A stretch of DNA of 64,000 nt from an uncultured Candidatus Saccharibacteria bacterium (GTDB taxonomy: Bacteria; Patescibacteriota; Minisyncoccia; Phycocordibacterales; PALSA-1337). Positions 44,203 through 59,522 of the stretch are shown in pieces. A model generated the notes under the pieces. That model made no database searches. It was not told the DNA's origin and saw only the letters and a program-made list of their open reading frames with translations. The first letter of the stretch is position 1; each line of letters opens with the position of its first letter. Both the position numbers and the translations under genes were made by a program. The DNA lies in NCBI GenBank assembly GCA_964412585.1, contig CAYPPJ010000006.1, forward strand, positions 31 to 64,030. The letters are read 5' to 3'.

Positions 44203-44424
44203 ATGAAGTCTCTCCTCCCGTATATCCAGATAATCCTGTCCGTTCTTATTGTTGCTGCGATTCTCTTGCAACGTACTGGTGCACAGGTTGGCGGCGCATT
44301 CGGTGGATCCGATAACTTTAGCTCTGCGTTCCATACCCGCCGCGGATTTGAGAAAGGACTCTTCATATTCAGCATCATCATCGCTATCCTGTTCGCAGTC
44401 TCTGCTCTGCTCAACTTGATCTAA
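44203..44424 (+). CDS. secG: Preprotein translocase subunit SecG.
   Basis: Two TM helices with the LLQ..G..GGAFGGS...RRG.EK loop pattern; about 74 aa. Confidence 0.65.
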   Translation: MKSLLPYIQIILSVLIVAAILLQRTGAQVGGAFGGSDNFSSAFHTRRGFEKGLFIFSIIIAILFAVSALLNLI

Positions 44425-44550
44425 TCACAGAAATTCGGAATTCTGAATTCTTGTCGAAATCGTAATACACATCTCGCTTATATTATTTTACAGAATGTAC
44501 GTATTTGAAAGTATATAGAATTTAGAATTCCGTGTTTCTCTCTTAACATC

Positions 44551-46337: not shown

Positions 46338-48386
46338 ATGAACCCTATTCAACCAAACAATAACCAACCCCCACGACCTCCACGAGACAGGAACTTCAAG
46401 TTCCAGCGTCGCCCGCACCAAGGTCACACGCGTACACTGCGCACTGATACATCAGGTGCGGCTACTTCGAACAAACCTGTCTTTCATCACGACCACAAGG
46501 GACACTCCCACGCGCCAGTGAGCACACAAGCTGCCAATGGTCATCGCGTCGTCCTCGGCCGTGGTGCTCACAAACATCCAGGAGCCGTCAAACATATTGC
46601 CGGCGCGCGCATGGATATTATTCGTCCCGACGCCGCAAAACCAATGCGCCGCCATGGTCCCGCAAAACCTATGGTGAAACGCGAGGGAGACGTCGTCCCC
46701 GCACTCGCTCCAGACGCTATCCGTATCATCCCACTAGGTGGTGTCGAAGAGATCGGCAAGAACATGACCGCTATCCAATATGGTGACGACATCGTCGTTG
46801 TTGATATTGGCTTCCAGTTTAAAGACGACGATACACCTGGTATCGACTTTATCCTGCCAAACACCAAGTATCTCGAGGAACGTCAGGACAAGATTAGAGC
46901 TGTTCTCATTACCCACGGTCACCTTGACCACATCGGTGGTATTCCCTATATCATGCCCCGTATTGGCAATCCGCCAGTCTATACCCGCCTTCTCACCTCG
47001 ATTTTGATCCAAAAGCGCCAAGAGGAATTTCCTCATGTGCCAAAGATTGATATGAAAGTTGTTGAAAAAAATGAAACAATCACTATTGGTAAACTCAAGG
47101 TCAAATTCTTTGCGGTAACCCACACCATCCCCGATGCTATGGGTGTCATCATAGAAACCCCGTATGGATCAATCGTCCATACCGGTGACCTCAAGCTCGA
47201 CCATGATGATGGTGTTCCTACTGAACAAGAAGTCGCAGAGTATGACCGTGCATTCAAAAATGAAAAAGTATTGATGCTCATGGCCGACTCGACCAACGTT
47301 GAGAACCCAGGCTTCTCATTGCCTGAAAAGACTGTGCACAAGAATCTCGAACTTATTATCCAGAATATGACTGGTCGTCTCATCATTGCAACATTCTCTT
47401 CTCTCTTGGAGCGCTTGCTCAAGATTGTTGAGTTCTCGGAAAAATATGGCAAGAAAGTTGTCGTCGAAGGGCGCAGTCTCAAACAGAATATCGAGATCTG
47501 TAAGGGTCTTGGACTGGTCAAAGCAAAGAAAGAAACCTTCATCACATCTGATGATATCGACAATTACCCGCCTGATCGTATTGTCATCCTTTCGACTGGT
47601 GCACAGGCAAACGACTTTTCTGCGTTGGTACGCATGTCCAACAAGACTCATGCCAAAATCAAGCTCACCCCACGCGACACCGTTGTTCTATCATCATCAG
47701 TCATTCCGGGAAATGAACGTCCAATCCAGAAGTTGAAAGACAATATCTCGCGCCAAGGAGCAAAAATTCTCCACTATCGCATTGCCGATGTCCACTCATC
47801 AGGACACGCCAATCGTGATGAGACAGCGTGGATCCATCGTGCTATCAAGCCGAAATTCTTTATGCCGCTTCACGGATATCACTACATGCTTCGCGCCCAC
47901 TGTGACATCGCAAAGGACGCCAATGGTCTCGCCGAGTCAGATGTGGTTATCCCTGATAACGGTTCTATTATTGAAATCCAGGCAGGTGGTACCAAACTGG
48001 TTAAACTCAAAGAAAAGGCAGCCTCAGGCCTGGTGCTTGTCGATGGATTCTCTGTCGGTGATGTGCAGGATGTGGTCATTCGTGACCGTCAGGCACTGGC
48101 TCAAGATGGTATCTTCATCATCTTCGGCATCCTCAATGCCCAGACCGGCAAGCTCAAAAAGTCTCCGGACATCATCTCGCGCGGTTTCGTCTATCTTCGC
48201 GAATCACAGGATCTTCTCCACGAAGTACGCCTCTTGATCAAAGATACAGTCGAAAAATCTACTCGCGGTATGAATCCTATCAACGTTGATTTCATCAAAG
48301 ACAATGTGACAGATAACGTCTCGAAGTTTTTGATGCAGAAGACTGCAAAGAGGCCGATGGTGATACCGGTGTTGCTCACGATTTAA
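46338..48386 (+). CDS. rnj: Ribonuclease J with a roughly 120-aa low-complexity N-terminal extension.
   Basis: Metallo-beta-lactamase motif LITHGHLDHIGG, beta-CASP and C-terminal domain. Confidence 0.85.
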   Translation: MNPIQPNNNQPPRPPRDRNFKFQRRPHQGHTRTLRTDTSGAATSNKPVFHHDHKGHSHAPVSTQAANGHRVVLGRGAHKHPGAVKHIAGARMDIIRPDAAKPMRRHGPAKPMVKREGDVVPALAPDAIRIIPLGGVEEIGKNMTAIQYGDDIVVVDIGFQFKDDDTPGIDFILPNTKYLEERQDKIRAVLITHGHLDHIGGIPYIMPRIGNPPVYTRLLTSILIQKRQEEFPHVPKIDMKVVEKNETITIGKLKVKFFAVTHTIPDAMGVIIETPYGSIVHTGDLKLDHDDGVPTEQEVAEYDRAFKNEKVLMLMADSTNVENPGFSLPEKTVHKNLELIIQNMTGRLIIATFSSLLERLLKIVEFSEKYGKKVVVEGRSLKQNIEICKGLGLVKAKKETFITSDDIDNYPPDRIVILSTGAQANDFSALVRMSNKTHAKIKLTPRDTVVLSSSVIPGNERPIQKLKDNISRQGAKILHYRIADVHSSGHANRDETAWIHRAIKPKFFMPLHGYHYMLRAHCDIAKDANGLAESDVVIPDNGSIIEIQAGGTKLVKLKEKAASGLVLVDGFSVGDVQDVVIRDRQALAQDGIFIIFGILNAQTGKLKKSPDIISRGFVYLRESQDLLHEVRLLIKDTVEKSTRGMNPINVDFIKDNVTDNVSKFLMQKTAKRPMVIPVLLTI

Positions 48387-48420
48387 GACACACGAGCCAA
48401 AGGGGTGCACATGTATGTTC

Positions 48421-48491
48421 GGATACGCGCGTTCGGCCGTGCTCGGCCGCCGCTATTCTCGGCCTCATCGGCCTGTGAAATGTATCCTCAC
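48421..48491. repeat. GC-rich palindromic MITE/RPE-like element, copy A, intergenic.
   Basis: About 85-90 percent identical by hand alignment to 56818..56890; imperfect TIR TCGGATAC/GTATCCTC; GC-rich core CGGCC..GGCCG. Confidence 0.65.
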
Positions 48492-48668
48492 ACACATGCG
48501 CGCCCCTTTGGCGTGCTTCCTTAAACTGAGCAGAACCCCTCCACTCCAACAGAACTGCGCAGCGATAGGGTTTTCGAACAACAACATAAAGTCACAGCCG
48601 TACTCCGCGTACCTCCGTCTTTTCATGTTGTTGTGAGGAAACCTCTGGCGCGGAGCAGTTCGGCAACA

Positions 48669-50021
48669 CTACAACCCCTGCAACGGATCAATCATAGTTC
48701 GTTGGATGTTGTCTGCTTTTGCAATCACACTATTACCATACGAAGCAATGAGAGACGAGGCGCTACAGGATTTGCCAGAATAGTACTTGCAAGCTGCGTT
48801 TCGCTCTGATGAATAGGTGCCACCTGAAGCTCCTAGGTCTCCCAAATAGATTGATGAGGCCATGAACGCATGCGATGGATTCCATGGATCAGGAATACCT
48901 GAGATGCCTAGATTGGCCGCAATACGATCCTCAAATAGTACCCACGTTGAAGCAATAAACTGCGCAGGACCCATCGCACCACCCCAGCCGACTGATTGAG
49001 GACATGAAACGACCTGCTTCATCGGATCTCCTCCGAGTTTTTTCACAATATCAATAAATGGTTCCACATCACGCCCCGGCTTCATAACTTTTGCAACATA
49101 AGAACCAGTTTTTTTACTGATACCTTCACCTGTTTGTGTATTGGTCAGGTAGCATGCGCCGACATTTGCTCCCAACGCGGACTCTTGGGTCAGAATGGCT
49201 AATACGAAGGCTGGTCTAACGCCTGTCTTTGCAGCAGCTGCCTGCGCATACTTGAGCGCATCGCCAAATGGAATTGGATTGGAGTCACGCAACTGGAACA
49301 ATGCGGCACGTATCTGGGAGGCACGTGCGCGCTTCTCAGCAAGAACAGCTGAATACGCTTTTTCATTGCCTTTGCTTGCGGCTAAGAGACGCTGTTTCTC
49401 AGCCTCATTTGCCTTAATACTCTTTTCTTCTTGCTGGATAATATAACGAGCATCTGTCTCTGCGTTTTTGCGTTTATCAAGCGTACTTTTTTCTGCCTCA
49501 GTCTCTGACTTATCCGATCGGATCCGTTCAAAGGTAGTCTTGAGACCCTCTTGCACTGATTGGAACGAATCAAGATCTGTAAAAAATCCAGTCAGCGTCG
49601 TCTGAGACAAAAGCATTTCAGGCAGTGTATATGTCCCCGCCTCATTGGTCTTGCGCATAATCTGTGCCAAGGTATCTCGTCCACGATCAATACGATCTTC
49701 CAGTTTCCCAATATATACCTCTTTATTTTTTATATCTTTTCCGAGGCTTTCAATAAGCAAATTTTTTGCCTTGATGTTGAGCTGAGCAACTTTGATTTTT
49801 GCCGACAACACGGAAATATCTTTTTGCAATGACGAACTCTGTCCCTGGGCTGAAGCAAGGTCTTTTTCAGCCTGTTTCTGGTCGGCTTCAACCTGTGCCA
49901 ATTCACGTTCTAGTTGTGCTTTTTGTTCAGGAGTAAGAACCTGGGCATGTAGAGGTGCAAAAAATGCCATAAGTGACAATATTAAAACCGCCAGGATGTA
50001 GATTCGTTGCCTGATGTTCAT
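48669..50021 (-). CDS. Secreted coiled-coil protein with a C-terminal lysozyme-like (lytic transglycosylase-type) peptidoglycan hydrolase domain.
   Basis: Signal/TM N-terminus, long heptad-rich region, C-terminal AFVLAILTQESALG motif with a catalytic-Glu context. Confidence 0.5.
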   Translation of the reverse strand: MNIRQRIYILAVLILSLMAFFAPLHAQVLTPEQKAQLERELAQVEADQKQAEKDLASAQGQSSSLQKDISVLSAKIKVAQLNIKAKNLLIESLGKDIKNKEVYIGKLEDRIDRGRDTLAQIMRKTNEAGTYTLPEMLLSQTTLTGFFTDLDSFQSVQEGLKTTFERIRSDKSETEAEKSTLDKRKNAETDARYIIQQEEKSIKANEAEKQRLLAASKGNEKAYSAVLAEKRARASQIRAALFQLRDSNPIPFGDALKYAQAAAAKTGVRPAFVLAILTQESALGANVGACYLTNTQTGEGISKKTGSYVAKVMKPGRDVEPFIDIVKKLGGDPMKQVVSCPQSVGWGGAMGPAQFIASTWVLFEDRIAANLGISGIPDPWNPSHAFMASSIYLGDLGASGGTYSSERNAACKYYSGKSCSASSLIASYGNSVIAKADNIQRTMIDPLQGL

Positions 50022-50086
50022 GTATGGTAAGTATAGCAAAAAGCGCACCGACGTGCGCCTTTTGTGATGACGTATGATGTGGTGAA

Positions 50087-50778: not shown

Positions 50779-51735
50779 CTATCTTACACTAATTGGTGGA
50801 AAAAGCAACCCGCGAGCCATGCGAGCGGAGCCGGGGTCGTATGACACCAACCCGCGAGCCATGCGAGCGGAGCCGTCCTCCAGGGTGAGGGCAACCCGCG
50901 AGCCATGCGAGGCAGGCTGGGGTTGCATGGCACCAACCACGTGTTCTGGGATACCAGCAAGATAAATCTCGTTAAGTTGCGATAGTGTTAGTGGCGTCTG
51001 AAACACTCCAACATCATCAATCATTCCTTGAAAAAAGAATATCCCTGCATATGCGTACCCAATCCTCGTAAACTGGGGTTGTGGTCCACAGGTATATGCG
51101 GGGACCCCGGCAGCAGTTACATCCCTTCCATTCACATACAAGGTCGCTTTTGTTCCCTCGACTATGATTGCGACATGCTGCCACTTATTGAGACTCAACA
51201 CACCGGTATTGCTAGAAAATGTGAGCGATTCACAAACATATTGGATACCAGCATTTGCATTTATACTAAAACCAGTATTACCTCCTCCTGTCCCCATGAA
51301 GCCGCGTACACCAGAAAACAACGTCGGGTATATCCACGCCATATACGTAAACGAGACCGGCGATGGGTAAACGGATGGAGGATTTGGGTTGATATCAACA
51401 AAGCTTGAAGACCCGTTAAAACTCAACGCATATCCAGTACCTGATGGCGTCGTTGCAACATATCCGTATGGTGACACCATACTTGTTGGCGATCCGTGCC
51501 GCTTGTATATAGACGCGTCTAGTGCCTGACCTGACCCCGTATTAAAATCATACCAACCAAATGCTGTAAGCGACAATAATCTATATACAGCCGATGAAAA
51601 AGATTGGCCTGCGGAGATCTGGGCTTTGTCTCGAACACCACTCAGTGCAACAAGCACCACTGACGAGAGCATGCTAATAATGGAAATCACCACCAGAAGC
51701 TCAATCAATGTGAAGCCTGTAGTGTATCGTTTCAT
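50779..51735 (-). CDS. Type IV pilin-like protein with a LamG/concanavalin-like domain and a C-terminal GSARMARGL tandem repeat, paralog 1 of 3.
   Basis: Prepilin N-terminus GFTLIELLVVISIISML; WQHVAIIVEGTKATLYVNG LamG-like motif; C-terminus encoded by a 3 x 43-bp DNA tandem repeat. Confidence 0.6.
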   Translation of the reverse strand: MKRYTTGFTLIELLVVISIISMLSSVVLVALSGVRDKAQISAGQSFSSAVYRLLSLTAFGWYDFNTGSGQALDASIYKRHGSPTSMVSPYGYVATTPSGTGYALSFNGSSSFVDINPNPPSVYPSPVSFTYMAWIYPTLFSGVRGFMGTGGGNTGFSINANAGIQYVCESLTFSSNTGVLSLNKWQHVAIIVEGTKATLYVNGRDVTAAGVPAYTCGPQPQFTRIGYAYAGIFFFQGMIDDVGVFQTPLTLSQLNEIYLAGIPEHVVGAMQPQPASHGSRVALTLEDGSARMARGLVSYDPGSARMARGLLFPPISVR

Positions 51736-51818
51736 TGAGTATTAAAATCAAACGCACGTAAACTTATCGCTCATATACAAGAGTAAATGCTGCGTTGTGG
51801 CGAATTTTCATCACAGCA

Positions 51819-52619
51819 TTATTGTAGCGCAAGTTGATGATTATTTCGACCTTCTGCATATATTGCCCGCACCTCCATAGCGGTCAATGATTCGGCAAAA
51901 ATCTGCACGTCGTCAATCAGGCCTTTAAATTTATAATTATTTGTCATGCCATTACCAATGGTAAAATCTTGTAACTGAAACAGGCTATTGGAAGTTGCGA
52001 CACTGCCTATCAATTTACCATCTATGTACATTGAGAGTTGACCGGATTTGGTGTCAAAATTGCAAAAAATATGATGCCATTTACTATCATAGATAAGAGC
52101 ATTGGGAACTGCGACACCAAATTGCTGCCAACATGTTGTGTTCGTGCCATTGTGATATATTTGCCGTCCACTACCATCATTATTAAATACAAGTAAATAT
52201 TCATACGATACGCCCGAATCGAGCGCGGCATTGTTTCGGTTAACCCAAAGTGAATATGCATAACTGGCATTTGAAAGTGTACGTGGTATTGATGGAGTAT
52301 ACGTTAGACGATTCACCTGATTCTGGGCATCAAAAGCTGAACCGGCGGAAAAGCTCGAAACGCGACCAATCGATACTGCTGTCGTAAAATTGTTCGATTG
52401 ATCAAGAGGTGCACCTGAGCCCTCATTGAAGTTCGCAAAGAAGATCATATCCGAACCAAGTTTATGATAGTTGTATGTCGCAAAAGTAACAATACTCCCT
52501 ATTCTTCCTTTATCACGCGCACCTTGTAGTGCCACCAACACAACTGATGACAACATGCTGATAATCGATAGGACCACCAGTAATTCAACAAGAGTAAAGG
52601 CTTTGGTATATCGTTTCAT
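51819..52619 (-). CDS. Type IV pilin-like protein with a LamG-like domain, paralog 2 of 3.
   Basis: AFTLVELLVVLSIISML N-terminus; WHHIFCNFDTKSGQLSMYIDG. Confidence 0.6.
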   Translation of the reverse strand: MKRYTKAFTLVELLVVLSIISMLSSVVLVALQGARDKGRIGSIVTFATYNYHKLGSDMIFFANFNEGSGAPLDQSNNFTTAVSIGRVSSFSAGSAFDAQNQVNRLTYTPSIPRTLSNASYAYSLWVNRNNAALDSGVSYEYLLVFNNDGSGRQIYHNGTNTTCWQQFGVAVPNALIYDSKWHHIFCNFDTKSGQLSMYIDGKLIGSVATSNSLFQLQDFTIGNGMTNNYKFKGLIDDVQIFAESLTAMEVRAIYAEGRNNHQLALQ

Positions 52620-52622
52620 TTT

Positions 52623-53498
52623 TTACTGTGCTTCAGCAAGTGTGTGTGTTGGTAAGCCGGCTGCATACATACGCTCAATGTCAGAAGCGGCGAGTGATTG
52701 CGTATATATAGCAACATCATCGATACCACCCTTGAAGGTCTGCGACGCACCATTGTTTAAGTAACCAAGACGGACACACGAAACACGCCTACTTACTCCC
52801 GTAGCACTGGCAAGCATAGGCCCTGGTATTTTTTTGCCATTTACGAAAAACGTGTGTGTGTTACTGGTTGCATTATATGTATAGGCCACATGAGTCCACT
52901 TTGCTTTTGGAATATAGCCGGTTCCGTCATACCACTGGTTGGATCCAACGCCACCATTATAAATGGCGACCTGAACTCCACTCGTAGCAGCAAACCAATA
53001 CAAGCTCGCTAAACGATTGTTCACATCACCACAGTTTGTCGTAATATCACTATAAAAAATCCATCCGTCAGCAGATGTCAAACTCGGCTTGACCCACATC
53101 GAGACTGTGTAGTTCGAAAATGTATTGTCGGGCATTTGTGCAGCAAGTGCAAACTGGCCTCCAACATTTGTACCAAGACCATCCAGTACGTACGATTGAC
53201 CAGCACCGTTTGGATTATCTGTCGTCGAGAAAGTTCCTGCTGCACCATTGGTTCCAACAAAAGCATATTGTGACTGATTGACTAGGGCACCTTTATTGAA
53301 GTCGGAATAGAGTATCGCATCTGCACCAAATGCATGATAGGTATAGCCAGAGAATCGTACCCCCGCACTTACCTGTCCTTTGTCTCTTGCCCCTTGGATA
53401 GCCACCAACACCACTGACGCAAGCATCGAGATAATCGACATAACCACTAGAAGTTCGACGAGAGTGAATGCTTTTGCATCAAGACGACGGTGGATCAT
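52623..53498 (-). CDS. Type IV pilin-like protein with a LamG-like domain, paralog 3 of 3.
   Basis: AFTLVELLVVMSIISML N-terminus; WTHVAYTYNATSNTHTFFVNG. Confidence 0.6.
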   Translation of the reverse strand: MIHRRLDAKAFTLVELLVVMSIISMLASVVLVAIQGARDKGQVSAGVRFSGYTYHAFGADAILYSDFNKGALVNQSQYAFVGTNGAAGTFSTTDNPNGAGQSYVLDGLGTNVGGQFALAAQMPDNTFSNYTVSMWVKPSLTSADGWIFYSDITTNCGDVNNRLASLYWFAATSGVQVAIYNGGVGSNQWYDGTGYIPKAKWTHVAYTYNATSNTHTFFVNGKKIPGPMLASATGVSRRVSCVRLGYLNNGASQTFKGGIDDVAIYTQSLAASDIERMYAAGLPTHTLAEAQ

Positions 53499-54903: not shown

Positions 54904-55899
54904 ATGTTCCACAGACCTCTTGACCTCATCACTATCGGCGACATCACCACCGATGCGTTCATCAAACTCAAAGAAGCAGAGGTGCACTGCAAGATTGACC
55001 ACAATACCTGCGAGATTTGCATGTCTTTTGGCGATAAAATCCCTTTTGAAAGTGCCAAGATCGTCAAGGGTGTAGGTAATGCGGCAAATGCAGCTGTTGC
55101 GGGTGCCCGACTCGGTCTGCGTACGGCACTGGTTGCAAACATTGGCACAGACCTCAATGGTCAGGAGTGCATGAATTCACTTCAGCACAATCATGTAGTC
55201 ACGTCATATATCAGGAAAAATGAAGGCAAGGCCACCAATTATCATTATGTCTTATGTTATGGCGCTGAGCGAACAATACTAGTCAATCATGTCGACTATG
55301 ACTACAAGCTGCCGAAATTACCAGAGGCACGATGGATCTATCTAACGTCATTGGCTTCAAATACTTTTCCATATCATATGGCAGTTGCCGACTATATCGA
55401 GGCTCACCCACAGATGCGTGTGGCTTTCCAACCTGGCACATTCCAAATGAAGCTTGGCTTTGATGAATTGAAACGTATCTACTCACGAACAGATGTTTTT
55501 ATCGTAAATGTCGAAGAAGCACAGCGCATGCTCAATACCGATTCACACGACGTAAAGTTACTAATGTCCAAGCTGCACAATTTTGGACCAAAGCTCATTC
55601 TGGTAACTGATGGTCCGAAAGGGGCCTATATGTTCGATGGCGACCACCACTATTTCATGCCAATCTATCCGGATCCAAAACCACCCACTCAGCGTACTGG
55701 ATGTGGCGACGCATTTGCCTCAACCTTCGTCTCCGCTCTCGCTATGGGTAAATCACCTCTAGAAGCCCTGACTTGGGCACCAGTCAATCCGATGTCAGTC
55801 GCACAGTTCGTTGGCGCACAAGAAGGGTTACTTACTCTCGAACAACTTGAATGGTGGCTTAAAAAAGCACCGGCAGATTATCGGGTCAAAGAGATTTAG
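54904..55899 (+). CDS. PfkB-family carbohydrate kinase.
   Basis: C-terminal TGCGDAFASTFV (DTxGAGD-type) motif; N-terminal GG-type pattern. Confidence 0.65.
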   Translation: MFHRPLDLITIGDITTDAFIKLKEAEVHCKIDHNTCEICMSFGDKIPFESAKIVKGVGNAANAAVAGARLGLRTALVANIGTDLNGQECMNSLQHNHVVTSYIRKNEGKATNYHYVLCYGAERTILVNHVDYDYKLPKLPEARWIYLTSLASNTFPYHMAVADYIEAHPQMRVAFQPGTFQMKLGFDELKRIYSRTDVFIVNVEEAQRMLNTDSHDVKLLMSKLHNFGPKLILVTDGPKGAYMFDGDHHYFMPIYPDPKPPTQRTGCGDAFASTFVSALAMGKSPLEALTWAPVNPMSVAQFVGAQEGLLTLEQLEWWLKKAPADYRVKEI

Positions 55900-57254
55900 G
55901 TATGCAATCGCCTGAATTCACCCCACTTCCCTTCAACAATCGCTTTTCGTGCATTTTTTACCAGATGCACCAAGAAATAGAGGTTGTGTATTGAAGTTAA
56001 TGTGGCGGCCAGCATTTCTTTGGCACGGAAAAGATGTGCAAGGTACGCCTTTGTATAGTTGGTGCAGGTATAACAACCACAGTCCTTTTCTATAGACGTA
56101 AAATCAGAGACAAACTGTGCATTGAATAAATTAATTCGGCCTCCTTTTATATATGCCGCTCCGTTGCGAGCGATACGTGTAGGCGCGACGCAATCGAAGG
56201 TGTCAATACCATTCTCAATTCCTAAAATGAGATCCTCGGGTTCGCCAATACCCAGGAGGTGACGTGGCTTATTCTCAGGCAATTCTTCGCAGACCCAGCC
56301 GACTGCGGTTCCAATGTCATCTTTATCAAATGAACCACCGATACCAAACCCGTCGAAATCCATTGAACCAATTGTTTTGGCAGAATGTCTACGTAGATCT
56401 TCGTGACGACCGCCCTGAACGATGCCAAATAAGGCGGACGTGCGAGACAAGATTTTTCTGGACACGCCGTCGACGCGTGGTCGCGTCGCGGCTGGTTCTC
56501 CCTCGCCTTCGCTCGGTCCGAAGCGTCCAGAAAAACTGTCTCCCACGTCCGCCTTTCGGTGTGCATCCAAACAACGCTGCGCCCAGGCATGAGTACGTTC
56601 AACAGCTGCTTTCTGCTTCTCATACGACTCCTGCGGTGAGAGACATTCATCAAATGCAAAAATAATGTCGGCACCAATGGCGTGCTGGATTTCAATGGAG
56701 CGTTCAGGAGTGAAGCGGTGCGTTGAACCATCGATGATTGATTTGAAGGTGACGCCATCATCGTCGATTTTGGCTAACTTAACGGACTTAGCTTCGTCGG
56801 ACATGAGTTCTGATACGCGCGTTCCGGCCTGCTGGCCGGCCGCTATGCTCGGCCTCAACGGCCTGTGCAATGTATCAGAACCCATGTCCTTCTTTGCTTC
56901 GTCCGTATCTGTTTGCCGTCCAATCTTCGATCCACCACCAAACGCCGGACCGAGTGAAAATGCTTGGAAGCCTCCCGAGTCCGTGAAGGTCGGGCCCTTC
57001 CAATTCATAAATTTTCCAAGACCTCCGGCTTTTTTGAGGACTTCAGTACCTGGTTGAAGATAGAGATGGTATGTATTCGCAAGAATGGCATCAGCCCCGA
57101 GTGAAGCGACCTGCTCTGGTGTAAGTGACTTTATCGTCGCTTTTGTGCCCACAGGAATAAAGGCGGGAGTCTGAATGTCCCCATGCGGTGTTTTGATGAC
57201 GCCTGCACGGCCCTTTGCGCCAGGAATCTTTGCTTCAATAGAAAATGAGAGCAT
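55896..57254 (-). CDS. tgt: Queuine tRNA-ribosyltransferase (Tgt) carrying two in-frame GC-rich insertions.
   Basis: FTDSGGFQ, catalytic-region motifs and the zinc-binding CxCxxC..H C-terminus; extra segments of about 55 and 40 aa. Confidence 0.8.
   Translation of the reverse strand: MLSFSIEAKIPGAKGRAGVIKTPHGDIQTPAFIPVGTKATIKSLTPEQVASLGADAILANTYHLYLQPGTEVLKKAGGLGKFMNWKGPTFTDSGGFQAFSLGPAFGGGSKIGRQTDTDEAKKDMGSDTLHRPLRPSIAAGQQAGTRVSELMSDEAKSVKLAKIDDDGVTFKSIIDGSTHRFTPERSIEIQHAIGADIIFAFDECLSPQESYEKQKAAVERTHAWAQRCLDAHRKADVGDSFSGRFGPSEGEGEPAATRPRVDGVSRKILSRTSALFGIVQGGRHEDLRRHSAKTIGSMDFDGFGIGGSFDKDDIGTAVGWVCEELPENKPRHLLGIGEPEDLILGIENGIDTFDCVAPTRIARNGAAYIKGGRINLFNAQFVSDFTSIEKDCGCYTCTNYTKAYLAHLFRAKEMLAATLTSIHNLYFLVHLVKNARKAIVEGKWGEFRRLHT
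56431..56555. repeat. GC-rich element flanked by a 12-bp perfect TIR, inserted in-frame in tgt.
   Basis: AAGGCGGACGTG ... CACGTCCGCCTT; internal palindrome CGACGCGTGGTCGCGTCG; GC far above the gene average. Confidence 0.55.
56818..56890. repeat. GC-rich palindromic MITE/RPE-like element, copy B, inserted in-frame in tgt.
   Basis: 9-bp perfect TIR TTCTGATAC/GTATCAGAA; about 85-90 percent identical by hand alignment to copy A. Confidence 0.65.
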
Positions 57255-59364: not shown

Positions 59365-59472
59365 GGCCAGGAGGCGGGCATGGTGTTTCGATGGTAGGTA
59401 AAGTCACATTAATACTCCGCATACTGCCGTCTTTTACCGGACAGAGAAACACCATGCCCGCCTCCTGGCCCT
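59365..59472. repeat. Perfect 25-bp inverted repeat (stem) with a 58-nt loop in the MFS leader region.
   Basis: GGCCAGGAGGCGGGCATGGTGTTTC ... GAAACACCATGCCCGCCTCCTGGCC. Confidence 0.6.
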
Positions 59473-59490: not shown

Positions 59491-59522
59491 TTACCCACGA
59501 AAAAACCCGCCTTTCGGCGGGT
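59491..59522 (-). terminator. Rho-independent terminator, bidirectional in shape, downstream of the RRM gene.
   Basis: A-run, AACCCGCC-TTTC-GGCGGGTT, T-run. Confidence 0.65.

What the first reader, a model, noticed from the sequence alone, without database searches (positions are those of the whole stretch)
55896..57254. Two GC-rich TIR-flanked palindromic elements inserted in-frame in tgt (RPE-like)
Tgt here has two extra segments relative to the conserved core, as I recall it from E. coli Tgt. The first lies between the DSGGFQ motif and the following beta-strand. It contains a 73-bp element (56818-56890) with a perfect 9-bp TIR (TTCTGATAC/GTATCAGAA) and a GC-rich palindromic core. The second lies before the GIVQGG motif. 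It is bounded by a perfect 12-bp TIR (AAGGCGGACGTG/CACGTCCGCCTT, 56431-56555) and has an internal CGACGCG-TGGT-CGCGTCG palindrome. Both keep the reading frame open. This mirrors Rickettsia palindromic elements, which insert into ORFs and are translated as extra peptide loops. I have not seen it reported for this kind of genome.
Basis: seen in the sequence. Interest (0 to 1): 0.65.

Follow-up and report, generated by a model that had tools for sequence, protein, structure and literature searches.

The report
Translated palindromic repeats inside CPR genes
The tgt gene of this Parcubacteria (CPR) bacterium carries two in-frame copies of a hairpin-forming repeat that is scattered through Patescibacteria genomes, between genes and inside many housekeeping genes, much like the "protein-coding palindromes" so far known mainly from Rickettsia.

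Summary
Each is a very stable ~91-125-nt hairpin: a long stem topped by two small hairpins. The first element's coordinates were off by 10 nt.

- Both inserts belong to one repeat superfamily. A third copy lies between genes in the same window (48396-48512).
- Covariance models found about 20 copies in 80 related tgt loci, and 112 more in 118 stretches of reference genomes. Almost all of those stretches are Patescibacteria, and one genome has at least 7 copies.
- 54 of 74 classified copies sit in-frame inside conserved genes: Tgt, PcrA, TsaD, IleS, UvrB, Fmt, Def, DnaG, SMC, MnmA and RsmA.
- They occur in both orientations, which encode unrelated peptides.
- The junction nucleotides are nearly invariant. 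The stems vary, but almost only by Watson-Crick double changes.
- Close relatives differ in whether they carry each insert.

The family differs from classical MITEs: the terminal repeats are not conserved between copies, no partner transposase was seen, and target duplications are unclear. How it moves is unknown.

It matches no Rfam family, and I found no report of it in the searchable literature. I rate it a new variant of a known kind.

The parts
55896..57254 (-). tgt (queuine/guanine tRNA-ribosyltransferase), 452 aa, the host gene of both inserts
   Evidence: ORF. Pfam TGT, E 1.6e-131, matched in two stretches. Matches Zymomonas Tgt structures in three blocks with two unmatched inserts. 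Gene order LOG-like / tgt / PfkB / FBA is the same as in relatives.
56431..56555 (+). Element 2, whole hairpin (125 nt): long outer stem plus two tip hairpins. Encodes about aa 234-275. The family-model orientation is the + strand, antisense to tgt.
   Evidence: Inverted repeats I2 and I3. RNA MFE -85.4 kcal/mol, z -9.2 on the mRNA strand. Absent from P0003 and P0007, which have 21 nt where the window has 126.
56453..56535 (+). Element 2 conserved core: GGACACGCCGTCG - hairpin with TGGT loop - CGCGGCTGGTTCTC - hairpin - TCCGAAGCGTCC. Encodes aa 240-268.
   Evidence: Covariance model R1, 103.8 bits, E 8e-25. Homologous cores at L001 (tgt), L032 (tgt site 1), L006/L098 (intergenic), L136 (dnaG) and L095 (smc).
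56782..56906 (+). Element 1, extended imperfect hairpin (35-nt arms, 77% complementary). The main 18-bp stem is 56799-56816 / 56872-56889. Encodes about aa 117-158.
   Evidence: Inverted repeat I1. RNA MFE -73.2 kcal/mol, z -9.1. Only the 3' half is retained in P0003 and P0007; absent in P0002.
56806..56881 (+). Element 1 conserved core. On the mRNA strand it reads ACAUUGCACAGG - hairpin - CCGAGCAUAGC - hairpin with AGCA loop - GCGCGU. Encodes aa 125-150.
   Evidence: Model R2, 103.3 bits on the - strand. R1 and R2 cross-hit each other's members on opposite strands, so both tgt elements share one architecture and one orientation. Alignment of seven element-1-type copies.
56787..56798 (.). Direct repeat CTTAGCTTCGTC flanking element 1. 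Its partner is at 56892-56903; spacing is 105 nt, or 35 codons.
   Evidence: Family D2 (11 of 12 identical). Whether it is a target-site duplication is unresolved.
56892..56903 (.). Second copy of the direct repeat (CTTTGCTTCGTC) flanking element 1
   Evidence: family D2.
48396..48512 (+). Intergenic copy of the element-1 subfamily (117-nt hairpin, 31-nt arms 84% complementary), in the spacer after the RNase J gene (stop at 48386) and the convergent gene 48669-50048
   Evidence: Inverted repeat I4. 85.7% identity to element 1 over 70 nt, E 6e-12. R2 97 bits and R1 29.4 bits on the opposite strand. Flanking genes.

Best explanation
The two inserts are copies of a dispersed, non-autonomous palindromic repeat family of Patescibacteria (CPR). 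A copy is about 110-130 bp. It has a long, copy-specific outer stem that closes a conserved three-way junction carrying two short hairpins.

Shown:
- Copies lie between genes and inside protein-coding genes.
- Inside genes they preserve the reading frame, carry no stop codon in the frame used, and fall at positions where the host protein has no conserved counterpart.
- The element, not the peptide, is the conserved entity. The same site holds copies in either orientation, with unrelated peptides, and junction nucleotides are nearly invariant while neighbouring synonymous sites are saturated.
- Presence or absence differs between close relatives.
- Some genomes hold near-identical copies, which indicates recent spread or homogenisation.

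Inferred:
- The segments are translated as extra loops of about 26-42 residues that are probably flexible and surface-exposed, as in Rickettsia palindromic elements. Only insertions in tolerant loops, and in the one benign frame per orientation, survive selection.
- Stem complementarity is maintained at the DNA level, with changes on one arm copied to the other (quasi-palindrome template switching or conversion between arms). This would explain double changes with almost no G-U intermediates.

Unknown: the mobilising enzyme and the insertion chemistry. The conserved junction and loops, rather than terminal repeats, are the likely recognition features, possibly as folded single-stranded DNA.
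For: Family membership and copies:
- Element 1 against the intergenic copy in the window: 86% identity over 70 nt.
- Models R1 and R2 found about 20 copies in 1.05 Mb of tgt loci.
- They found 74 + 38 copies in 118 reference-genome stretches, nearly all titled Patescibacteria lineages.
- At least 7 copies in one Nomurabacteria genome, four with identical cores.

Genic, in-frame:
- 14 of 14 tgt copies are inside the ORF.
- 54 of 74 reference-genome copies span long ORFs.
- Hosts named by NCBIfam: PcrA, TsaD, IleS, UvrB, Fmt, Def, DnaG, SMC, MnmA, RsmA.

The element, not the peptide, is conserved:
- The two orientations are about equally common (about 28 sense, 26 antisense) and give unrelated peptides at the same sites.
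- Element identity is 0.81 against 0.51 at flanking third codon positions.

Selection on translation: the one frame per orientation used in genes has stops in 1 of 63 and 0 of 63 copies. The other four frames have stops in 9-37 of 63.

Structure:
- 92-95% of cells are paired, and 16-23 of 28 pairs show double changes.
- In helix 2 of 38 independent copies there are 61 double changes and 0 single changes.

Polymorphism in close relatives.

Loop placement: pLDDT is below 50 at residues 99-157 and 239-269, and both segments are unmatched in solved Tgt structures.

Independent insertions: a simulated in-place flip gives the wrong frame.
Against: - No transposase or other mobilising gene was found next to the copies examined, or near tgt. 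Only a few neighbourhoods were checked.
- Outer stems are not conserved between copies, and a clean target-site duplication was not established. Transposition in the classical MITE sense is therefore not demonstrated.
- Part of the pattern, the same orthologous site occupied across genomes, could reflect old insertions plus conversion between copies rather than repeated new insertions (one search gives only a modest signal).
- Translation of the inserts is inferred from frame and stop-codon statistics, not observed.
- The structure model is of moderate quality (mean pLDDT 67.8, 27-sequence alignment). Loop exposure is suggestive only.
- Very stable hairpins (-73 to -85 kcal/mol) inside an mRNA might be expected to hinder translation.
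Confidence: 0.75

Rival explanations
1. A structured RNA with a function of its own sits inside the gene. It could be a cis-regulatory element, a ribozyme, or an intervening sequence cut out of the mRNA (for example by a double-strand-specific RNase followed by ligation). In that case the peptide is never made or is irrelevant.
For: Strong covariation supports a defined three-way-junction fold with invariant junction and loop nucleotides. The window's two elements fold 6-11 kcal/mol better on the mRNA strand than on the other strand. One copy sits in the 5' leader of a tgt gene (L069).
Against: - Copies occur in both orientations relative to host genes at about equal frequency.
- G-U pairs are almost absent, so neither strand is favoured.
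- The frame used in genes is kept stop-free while the other frames are not. Excision would make that unnecessary.
- No Rfam family matches, even in permissive mode, including all known self-cleaving ribozymes and introns.
Confidence: 0.08
2. The extra segments are ordinary lineage-specific protein loops of Parcubacteria Tgt, kept for a protein-level role. Their palindromy is incidental.
For: The element-2 peptide FGRFG.SEGEGEPAATSPEVDGVSK recurs in several Tgt relatives. Insert sites coincide with variable loops.
Against: - The same nucleotide core occurs between genes and in at least 11 unrelated proteins.
- Opposite orientations give unrelated peptides at one site.
- Third codon positions inside the element are as conserved as the first two, while the flanks are saturated.
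- Close relatives lack the segments.
Confidence: 0.03
3. Hairpins arise on the spot through replication template switching (snap-back inverted duplication) at fragile loops. There is no mobile element, and similar cores are convergent or spread only by recombination.
For: - Tgt site 2 carries many unrelated hairpin inserts, including a perfect 21-bp palindrome (L002).
- The outer stem arms are copy-specific. At element 2 the upstream arm resembles the sequence found in relatives without the insert.
- Double changes without intermediates fit template switching.
Against: This cannot explain a 60-nt asymmetric core with near-invariant junction sequence shared by more than 130 copies in different genes and genomes. 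Nor can it explain identical copies at several loci of one genome. It may still account for the growth and upkeep of the outer stems.
Confidence: 0.06
4. The elements are intragenic invertible switches. The core flips in place between its long inverted arms, giving each host protein two alternative loops (phase variation).
For: Both orientations occur at the same site of Tgt, PcrA, TsaD, UvrB and Fmt. Both used frames are stop-free. In one genome the core appears flipped relative to shared outer flanks in intergenic copies.
Against: A simulated in-place inversion of five genic copies yields the other frame, which is Cys/Arg-rich and often has stops, not the peptide seen in reverse-orientation copies. 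No invertase was found nearby.
Confidence: 0.05

Closest known systems
Rickettsia palindromic elements (RPE; Ogata et al. 2000, 2002, as summarised in PMC10969869)
   Same: - 100-150-bp palindromic repeats that fold into long hairpins.
- Many dispersed copies.
- A large share inserted in-frame in unrelated housekeeping genes, each family carrying an open frame.
- Apparently tolerated as extra protein segments.
- Host organisms have small genomes and a dependent lifestyle (the lifestyle point is from my own knowledge).
   Different: - A different phylum.
- No sequence relationship was tested or is expected.
- The conserved part is a three-way-junction core with hypervariable but perfectly complementary stems.
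- The same orthologous site is occupied in either orientation across many genomes.
- Several unrelated hairpin families share one site.
Bacterial MITEs that carry open frames and sometimes fuse in-frame (ERIC, BOX, Anabaena MITEs; review PMC10969869)
   Same: Small, non-autonomous, multicopy, hairpin-forming, and occasionally intragenic and in-frame.
   Different: MITEs are defined by terminal inverted repeats shared among copies and with a parent insertion sequence, plus target-site duplications. Here the termini differ between copies, no parent element was seen, and duplications are unclear.
REP / REPIN sequences mobilised by RAYT (Y1/HUH) transposases (own knowledge)
   Same: Structure rather than terminal sequence appears to be what is conserved. 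Copies within a genome are homogenised. Recognition as folded single-stranded DNA is a plausible mechanism.
   Different: REPs are 20-40 nt, extragenic, and have a conserved 5' tetranucleotide. These elements are 110-130 nt, branched and mostly intragenic. No RAYT-like gene was looked for genome-wide.
GC-cluster / 'byp' hairpin elements inside yeast mitochondrial genes (own knowledge)
   Same: Mobile GC-rich hairpins that colonise coding sequence in an AT-richer genome.
   Different: Byps are skipped by translational bypassing and need not be in-frame. Here the frame is kept open and selected.

Membership tests
Rickettsia palindromic elements (RPE) | Repeated 100-150-bp palindromic sequence that folds as a long hairpin | tested here: met
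   91-125-nt hairpins with z about -9. The fold is conserved in more than 130 copies.
Rickettsia palindromic elements (RPE) | Dispersed multicopy family with both intergenic and intragenic copies | tested here: met
   3 copies in the window. At least 7 copies in genome MFVF01. 54 genic and 20 other among 74 classified copies.
Rickettsia palindromic elements (RPE) | Intragenic copies are in-frame and stop-free and sit in unrelated conserved genes; each family has a conserved open frame | tested here: met
Rickettsia palindromic elements (RPE) | Inserted peptide lies at the protein surface, compatible with the fold | tested here: inconclusive
   Insert regions have pLDDT below 50 in a model of moderate quality and are unmatched in solved Tgt structures. 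No experimental structure is available.
Rickettsia palindromic elements (RPE) | Sequence homology to RPE-1 to RPE-10 and occurrence in Rickettsia | not tested
   No RPE consensus sequences are held by the tools. The host is a Parcubacteria-type CPR bacterium, so this is treated as an analogue, not a member.
MITE (miniature inverted-repeat transposable element) | Small, multicopy, no transposase gene of its own | tested here: met
   110-130 nt. The only open frames are read-through of host genes.
MITE (miniature inverted-repeat transposable element) | Terminal inverted repeats conserved among copies and shared with a parent insertion sequence | tested here: not met
   Outer stems differ between copies while the core is conserved. 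No transposase was found in the neighbourhoods examined.
MITE (miniature inverted-repeat transposable element) | Target-site duplication of fixed length | tested here: inconclusive
   A 12-nt direct repeat flanks element 1. TAG/CTA flanks occur in one genome. Comparison of the filled site with relatives that lack the insert is not clean.
REP/REPIN-RAYT system | Short (20-40 nt) extragenic imperfect palindromes with a conserved 5' tetranucleotide, linked to a RAYT gene | tested here: not met
   The size, the branched core and the intragenic location all differ. Linkage to a RAYT gene was not tested genome-wide.
Known structured RNA families, self-splicing introns and ribozymes (Rfam 15) | Match to a curated covariance model | tested here: not met
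   Only tRNAs pass at gathering score in the window. In permissive mode there were only far-below-threshold generic hairpin (miRNA) hits.
Known structured RNA families, self-splicing introns and ribozymes (Rfam 15) | Strand-specific structure: fixed orientation to transcription, with G-U intermediates in covariation | tested here: not met
   Both orientations are about equally common. 2 G-U cells of 387, and 0 single changes in helix 2.
Intragenic invertons | A segment between inverted repeats flips in place and both states encode a protein | tested here: not met
   Simulated flips give the unused frame, often with stops.

The most novel reading that the evidence does not exclude
A phylum-wide, still-active class of branched (three-way-junction) palindromic elements has its own, so far unknown, structure-specific mobilisation machinery. 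It repeatedly targets hairpin-prone loops of core housekeeping genes in CPR bacteria. The invariant junction and loop nucleotides would be the recognition or cleavage site, probably as folded single-stranded DNA. The elements would continually rewrite the surface loops of essential proteins. This would make CPR the second and much larger realm of 'protein-coding palindromes', and would point to a new transposition mechanism.
Probability: 0.3. Interest if true: 0.8.

Novelty: new variant of a known kind. Interest (0 to 1): 0.68.

Why it matters
- Protein-coding palindromes have been treated as a peculiarity of Rickettsia. A 2024 MITE review names no other lineage with RPE-like frequency of in-frame insertions and only speculates that other prokaryotes may do the same. 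A second, far broader occurrence in another group of small-genome bacteria would allow comparative study of how selfish hairpins colonise essential genes and supply new protein loops.
- It explains part of the puzzling length variation of conserved CPR proteins. Tgt site 2 ranges from 15 to 61 residues.
- The host genes include several that, to my knowledge, are widely used as phylogenetic markers (IleS, UvrB, TsaD, Fmt, DnaG, MnmA, RsmA). Unrecognised inserts of shared nucleotide origin could mislead alignments, homology searches and structure prediction.
- The conserved branched core with hypervariable, perfectly complementary stems hints at a recognition or maintenance mechanism that differs from terminal-repeat transposition.

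Tried and rejected
- Rfam search of the window (gathering scores) and of the elements (permissive): nothing relevant.
- Short-motif regex scan of the loci for junction motifs: too noisy, though it revealed the L032 copy.
- Viral contig scan with the core pattern: 2 hits, neither confirmed by the covariance model, so no evidence that phages carry the element.
- Search for a transposase next to intergenic copies (L087, L088) and around tgt in the window: only ordinary genes.
- Idea that tgt is a special target, for example because Tgt binds UGU hairpin loops and the conserved loop is UGSU: dropped once the reference-genome scan showed many other host genes.
- Idea that the two orientations are in-place flips: simulation gives the wrong frame.
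- Within-genome against same-site similarity, used to separate concerted evolution from vertical inheritance: only a modest signal, dominated by one genome.
- BLAST of the other window hairpins (59365-59470, 44418-44550, 48569-48643) against all loci: no relatives.
- Literature searches linking RPE-like, palindromic or in-frame elements with CPR, Patescibacteria or Parcubacteria: nothing relevant found.
- One search was a mis-specified query and returned an error.
Full report
**What is at the coordinates.**
The ORF 55896-57254 on the minus strand encodes a 452-residue Tgt (Pfam TGT, E 1.6e-131, matched in two stretches). The best database relatives are Parcubacteria or 'Candidatus Taylorbacteria' MAG proteins. 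Aligned to Zymomonas Tgt crystal structures, the protein matches in three blocks. Residues 103-159 and 233-264 have no counterpart; the structure has a single residue at each place.

**The DNA features are real.**
- Element 2 is exactly as reported. It spans 56431-56555, with 19-nt arms 95% complementary, an inner perfect 11-nt arm and the CGACGCG-TGGT-CGCGTCG hairpin.
- Element 1's 9-bp repeat lies at 56808-56816 and 56872-56880, 10 nt lower than reported. It is the inner part of an 18-bp stem (56799-56889) within 35-nt imperfect arms (56782-56906).
- Each region folds into a long stem capped by two small hairpins. On the mRNA strand the free energies are -85.4 and -73.2 kcal/mol, with z about -9.
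- Together with two intergenic hairpins, they are the four most stable 130-nt segments in the 64 kb.
- GC is 0.58-0.63 locally against 0.476 for the window.

**They are copies of a repeat family.**
- A 117-nt hairpin in the spacer after the RNase J gene (48396-48512) is 86% identical to the core of element 1 over 70 nt.
- In 80 related tgt loci from metagenomes, BLAST and motif scans found an element-2-type core between genes in L006 and at tgt site 1 in L032. They also found an element-1-type core just upstream of tgt in L069.
- I built two covariance models from these few copies. Each model hits the other's members on the opposite strand. So elements 1 and 2 share one architecture and lie in the same orientation in the window's tgt.
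- In that orientation the plan is: outer stem; AC; GCSG-U; hairpin with a UGSU loop; CSGC; about 8 conserved unpaired bases; second hairpin; about 8 conserved unpaired bases; outer stem.
- A third, commoner subfamily appeared in other tgt genes: GGGGUCGCUGUCU-hairpin-AGCGCUGCCUCUC-GGCYCGUCRGCC-UGCGAGACACCCC.

**How widespread it is.**
Nearly all came from records titled Nomurabacteria, Paceibacterota, 'Saccharibacteria', Kaiserbacteria, Minisyncoccia or Patescibacteria group. A handful of evident chance hits came from other phyla.
- The model confirmed 74 + 38 copies in those stretches.
- Several genomes contributed 3-7 loci. One Nomurabacteria MAG (MFVF01) has at least seven copies. Four have identical cores, and three of those share a perfect ~30-bp outer stem, giving an element of about 129 nt.
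- Two matches in viral contigs were not confirmed by the model.

**Most copies are inside genes, in frame.**
- All 14 copies in tgt genes lie within the intact ORF.
- Of the 74 reference-genome copies classified, 54 are spanned by long ORFs with at least 40 residues on each side.
- Clustering and NCBIfam identify the hosts as Tgt, PcrA/UvrD-type helicase (one gene holds two copies), TsaD, IleS, UvrB, Fmt, Def, DnaG, SMC, MnmA and RsmA. The family profiles are typically split at the insert.
- Sense and antisense orientations are about equally frequent (about 28 and 26).
- In Tgt, PcrA, TsaD, UvrB and Fmt, the same site carries the element in either orientation in different genomes. This produces unrelated peptides: GSLS..A..ALPLGSSACETP against GVSQADGPRGSA.....DSDP.
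- For the common subfamily, the single frame per orientation used in genes has stops in 1 of 63 and 0 of 63 copies. The other four frames have stops in 9-37 of 63.

This is the signature expected if the segment is translated and only benign frames survive. It is hard to reconcile with removal from the mRNA.

**What is conserved is nucleic acid.**
- Among 17 Tgt genes carrying the common subfamily in the sense orientation, the element is 0.81 identical. Flanking third codon positions are 0.51 identical.
- Junction and loop bases are almost invariant, whereas the first hairpin's stem differs between copies yet stays paired.
- On 15 copies, 92% of cells pair and 23 of 28 pairs show changes on both sides.
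- On 38 further copies not used to build the model, 94.6% of cells pair. Helix 2 shows 61 double changes and no single-sided (G-U) change. These alignments are fitted to the model, which inflates pairing somewhat, but the slid-partner controls give 37-55% pairing.
- The near absence of wobble pairs, together with orientation independence, points to a constraint that is symmetrical between the strands. That means DNA-level palindromy rather than one functional RNA strand.
- A plausible cause, by inference, is copying of one arm onto the other by template switching at quasi-palindromes, or conversion between arms.

**Evidence for gain and loss in the window's own lineage.**
In a codon-level alignment with close relatives that share the same gene order:
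- P0003 and P0007 have 21 nt where the window has the 126-nt element-2 region.
- P0003 and P0007 retain only the 3' half of element 1, a partial deletion.
- P0002 has element 2 but lacks element 1.
- P0002 has an element-1-type copy (88 bits) in the spacer next to the neighbouring LOG-family gene, where the window has only 23 nt.
- Outer-stem arms of the orthologous element-2 copies in the window, P0002 and P0004 differ, yet they co-vary.

**The site is a hot spot for hairpins of several kinds.**
- Across 83 Tgt sequences, the segment before FGIVQGG ranges from 15 to 61 residues.
- Of the 16 long versions examined, nearly all are strong hairpins at the DNA level (z -4 to -10). They come from several unrelated sequence families, including a perfect 21-bp palindrome and a 150-nt hairpin.
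- A simulated in-place inversion of genic copies yields the unused frame, Cys/Arg-rich and often with stops. The two orientations at one site therefore look like independent insertions retained by selection, not a simple flip.

**Protein context.**
An AlphaFold2 model from a 27-sequence alignment is of moderate quality (mean pLDDT 67.8). It shows pLDDT below 50 for residues 99-157 and 239-269, between well-predicted barrel elements. This is consistent with flexible surface loops but does not prove it.

**What it is not.**
- It matches no Rfam family, including introns and self-cleaving ribozymes.
- It does not behave like a classical MITE. Terminal repeats are copy-specific, no transposase lies nearby in the neighbourhoods examined, and target duplications are ambiguous. 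There is a 12-nt direct repeat around element 1 and TAG/CTA flanks in one genome, but comparison with relatives that lack the insert is not clean.
- It is not a REP-type element in size or location.

**Comparison with known systems and novelty.**
The closest analogue is the Rickettsia palindromic element. Both show the same size range, hairpin fold, dispersed copies, frequent in-frame insertion in housekeeping genes and a conserved open frame (review PMC10969869). I treat this family as an analogue, not a member, because homology to RPE could not be tested and the phylum differs.

Distinctive features here are:
- the branched core with invariant junctions;
- hypervariable but perfectly complementary stems;
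- two-orientation occupancy of orthologous sites;
- the phylum-wide distribution.

Six full-text searches found no paper connecting such elements with CPR or Patescibacteria. That is absence from the searchable library, not proof of novelty.

**Verdict.**
The mechanism of spread is unresolved. I rate it a new variant of a known kind and of substantial interest.

Noticed in passing
window 59365-59470: A 106-nt hairpin with a 25-bp perfect stem (38-nt arms, 87% complementary) lies between the MFS transporter gene start and the RRM-protein gene stop. It is followed by a terminator-like GC hairpin and T-run near 59500. It is the second most stable 130-nt segment in the window. Models R1 and R2 do not hit it, and BLAST found no relatives in the fetched loci.
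   Followed up: partly
window 44418-44550 and 48569-48643: Two more imperfect inverted repeats (34-35-nt arms, 71-76% complementary). One lies immediately upstream of the SBP_bac_5 gene start; the other lies in the same spacer as the intergenic element copy. No relatives were found.
   Followed up: partly
Tgt relatives P0004, P0005, P0009, P0010, P0011, P0019 (alignment A2, columns ~470-495): A third variable insertion site in Tgt, between NGAAY and GRINL, is filled in several relatives but empty in the window's gene. It was not examined for hairpins.
   Followed up: no
L002, L013, L015, L024/L026, L049/L054, L060/L061, L063 (tgt site 2): Several other, unrelated families of strongly hairpin-forming in-frame inserts occupy the same Tgt loop in other Parcubacteria. 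This suggests many 'protein-coding palindrome' families, not one.
   Followed up: partly
L106, L119, L156 (genome MFVF01): Near-identical intergenic copies share sequence beyond the perfect 30-bp stem (..ATAG / TAGTG..). Relative to these outer flanks, the core appears inverted in L106 compared with L156, which hints at flipping between the perfect arms.
   Followed up: partly
L150:368-4099 (-): This IleS (1244 aa) contains, besides the palindromic insert, an internal histidine-phosphatase / phosphoglycerate-mutase-like domain (residues ~573-740, E about 1e-21) between the two halves of the synthetase match.
   Followed up: no
L088:3555-4160 (+) and L088:3319-3452: This nucleoside diphosphate kinase is about 60 residues longer than usual and its Pfam match is split in two, so it may hold another insert. 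Just upstream, model R1 gives a weak hit (29 bits) to a 134-nt variant with enlarged hairpins.
   Followed up: no
window 50782-53498 (-): Three tandem paralogous genes encode proteins with an N-terminal prepilin-type methylation motif plus a Laminin_G_3 (concanavalin-like) domain. They lie next to the L25 gene.
   Followed up: no
P0008: A 459-aa database protein is 98% identical to this Tgt over 72% of the query, but also carries PF17191 and PF01336 (tRNA anticodon-binding OB fold) domains. It may be a fusion or a chimeric assembly.
   Followed up: no
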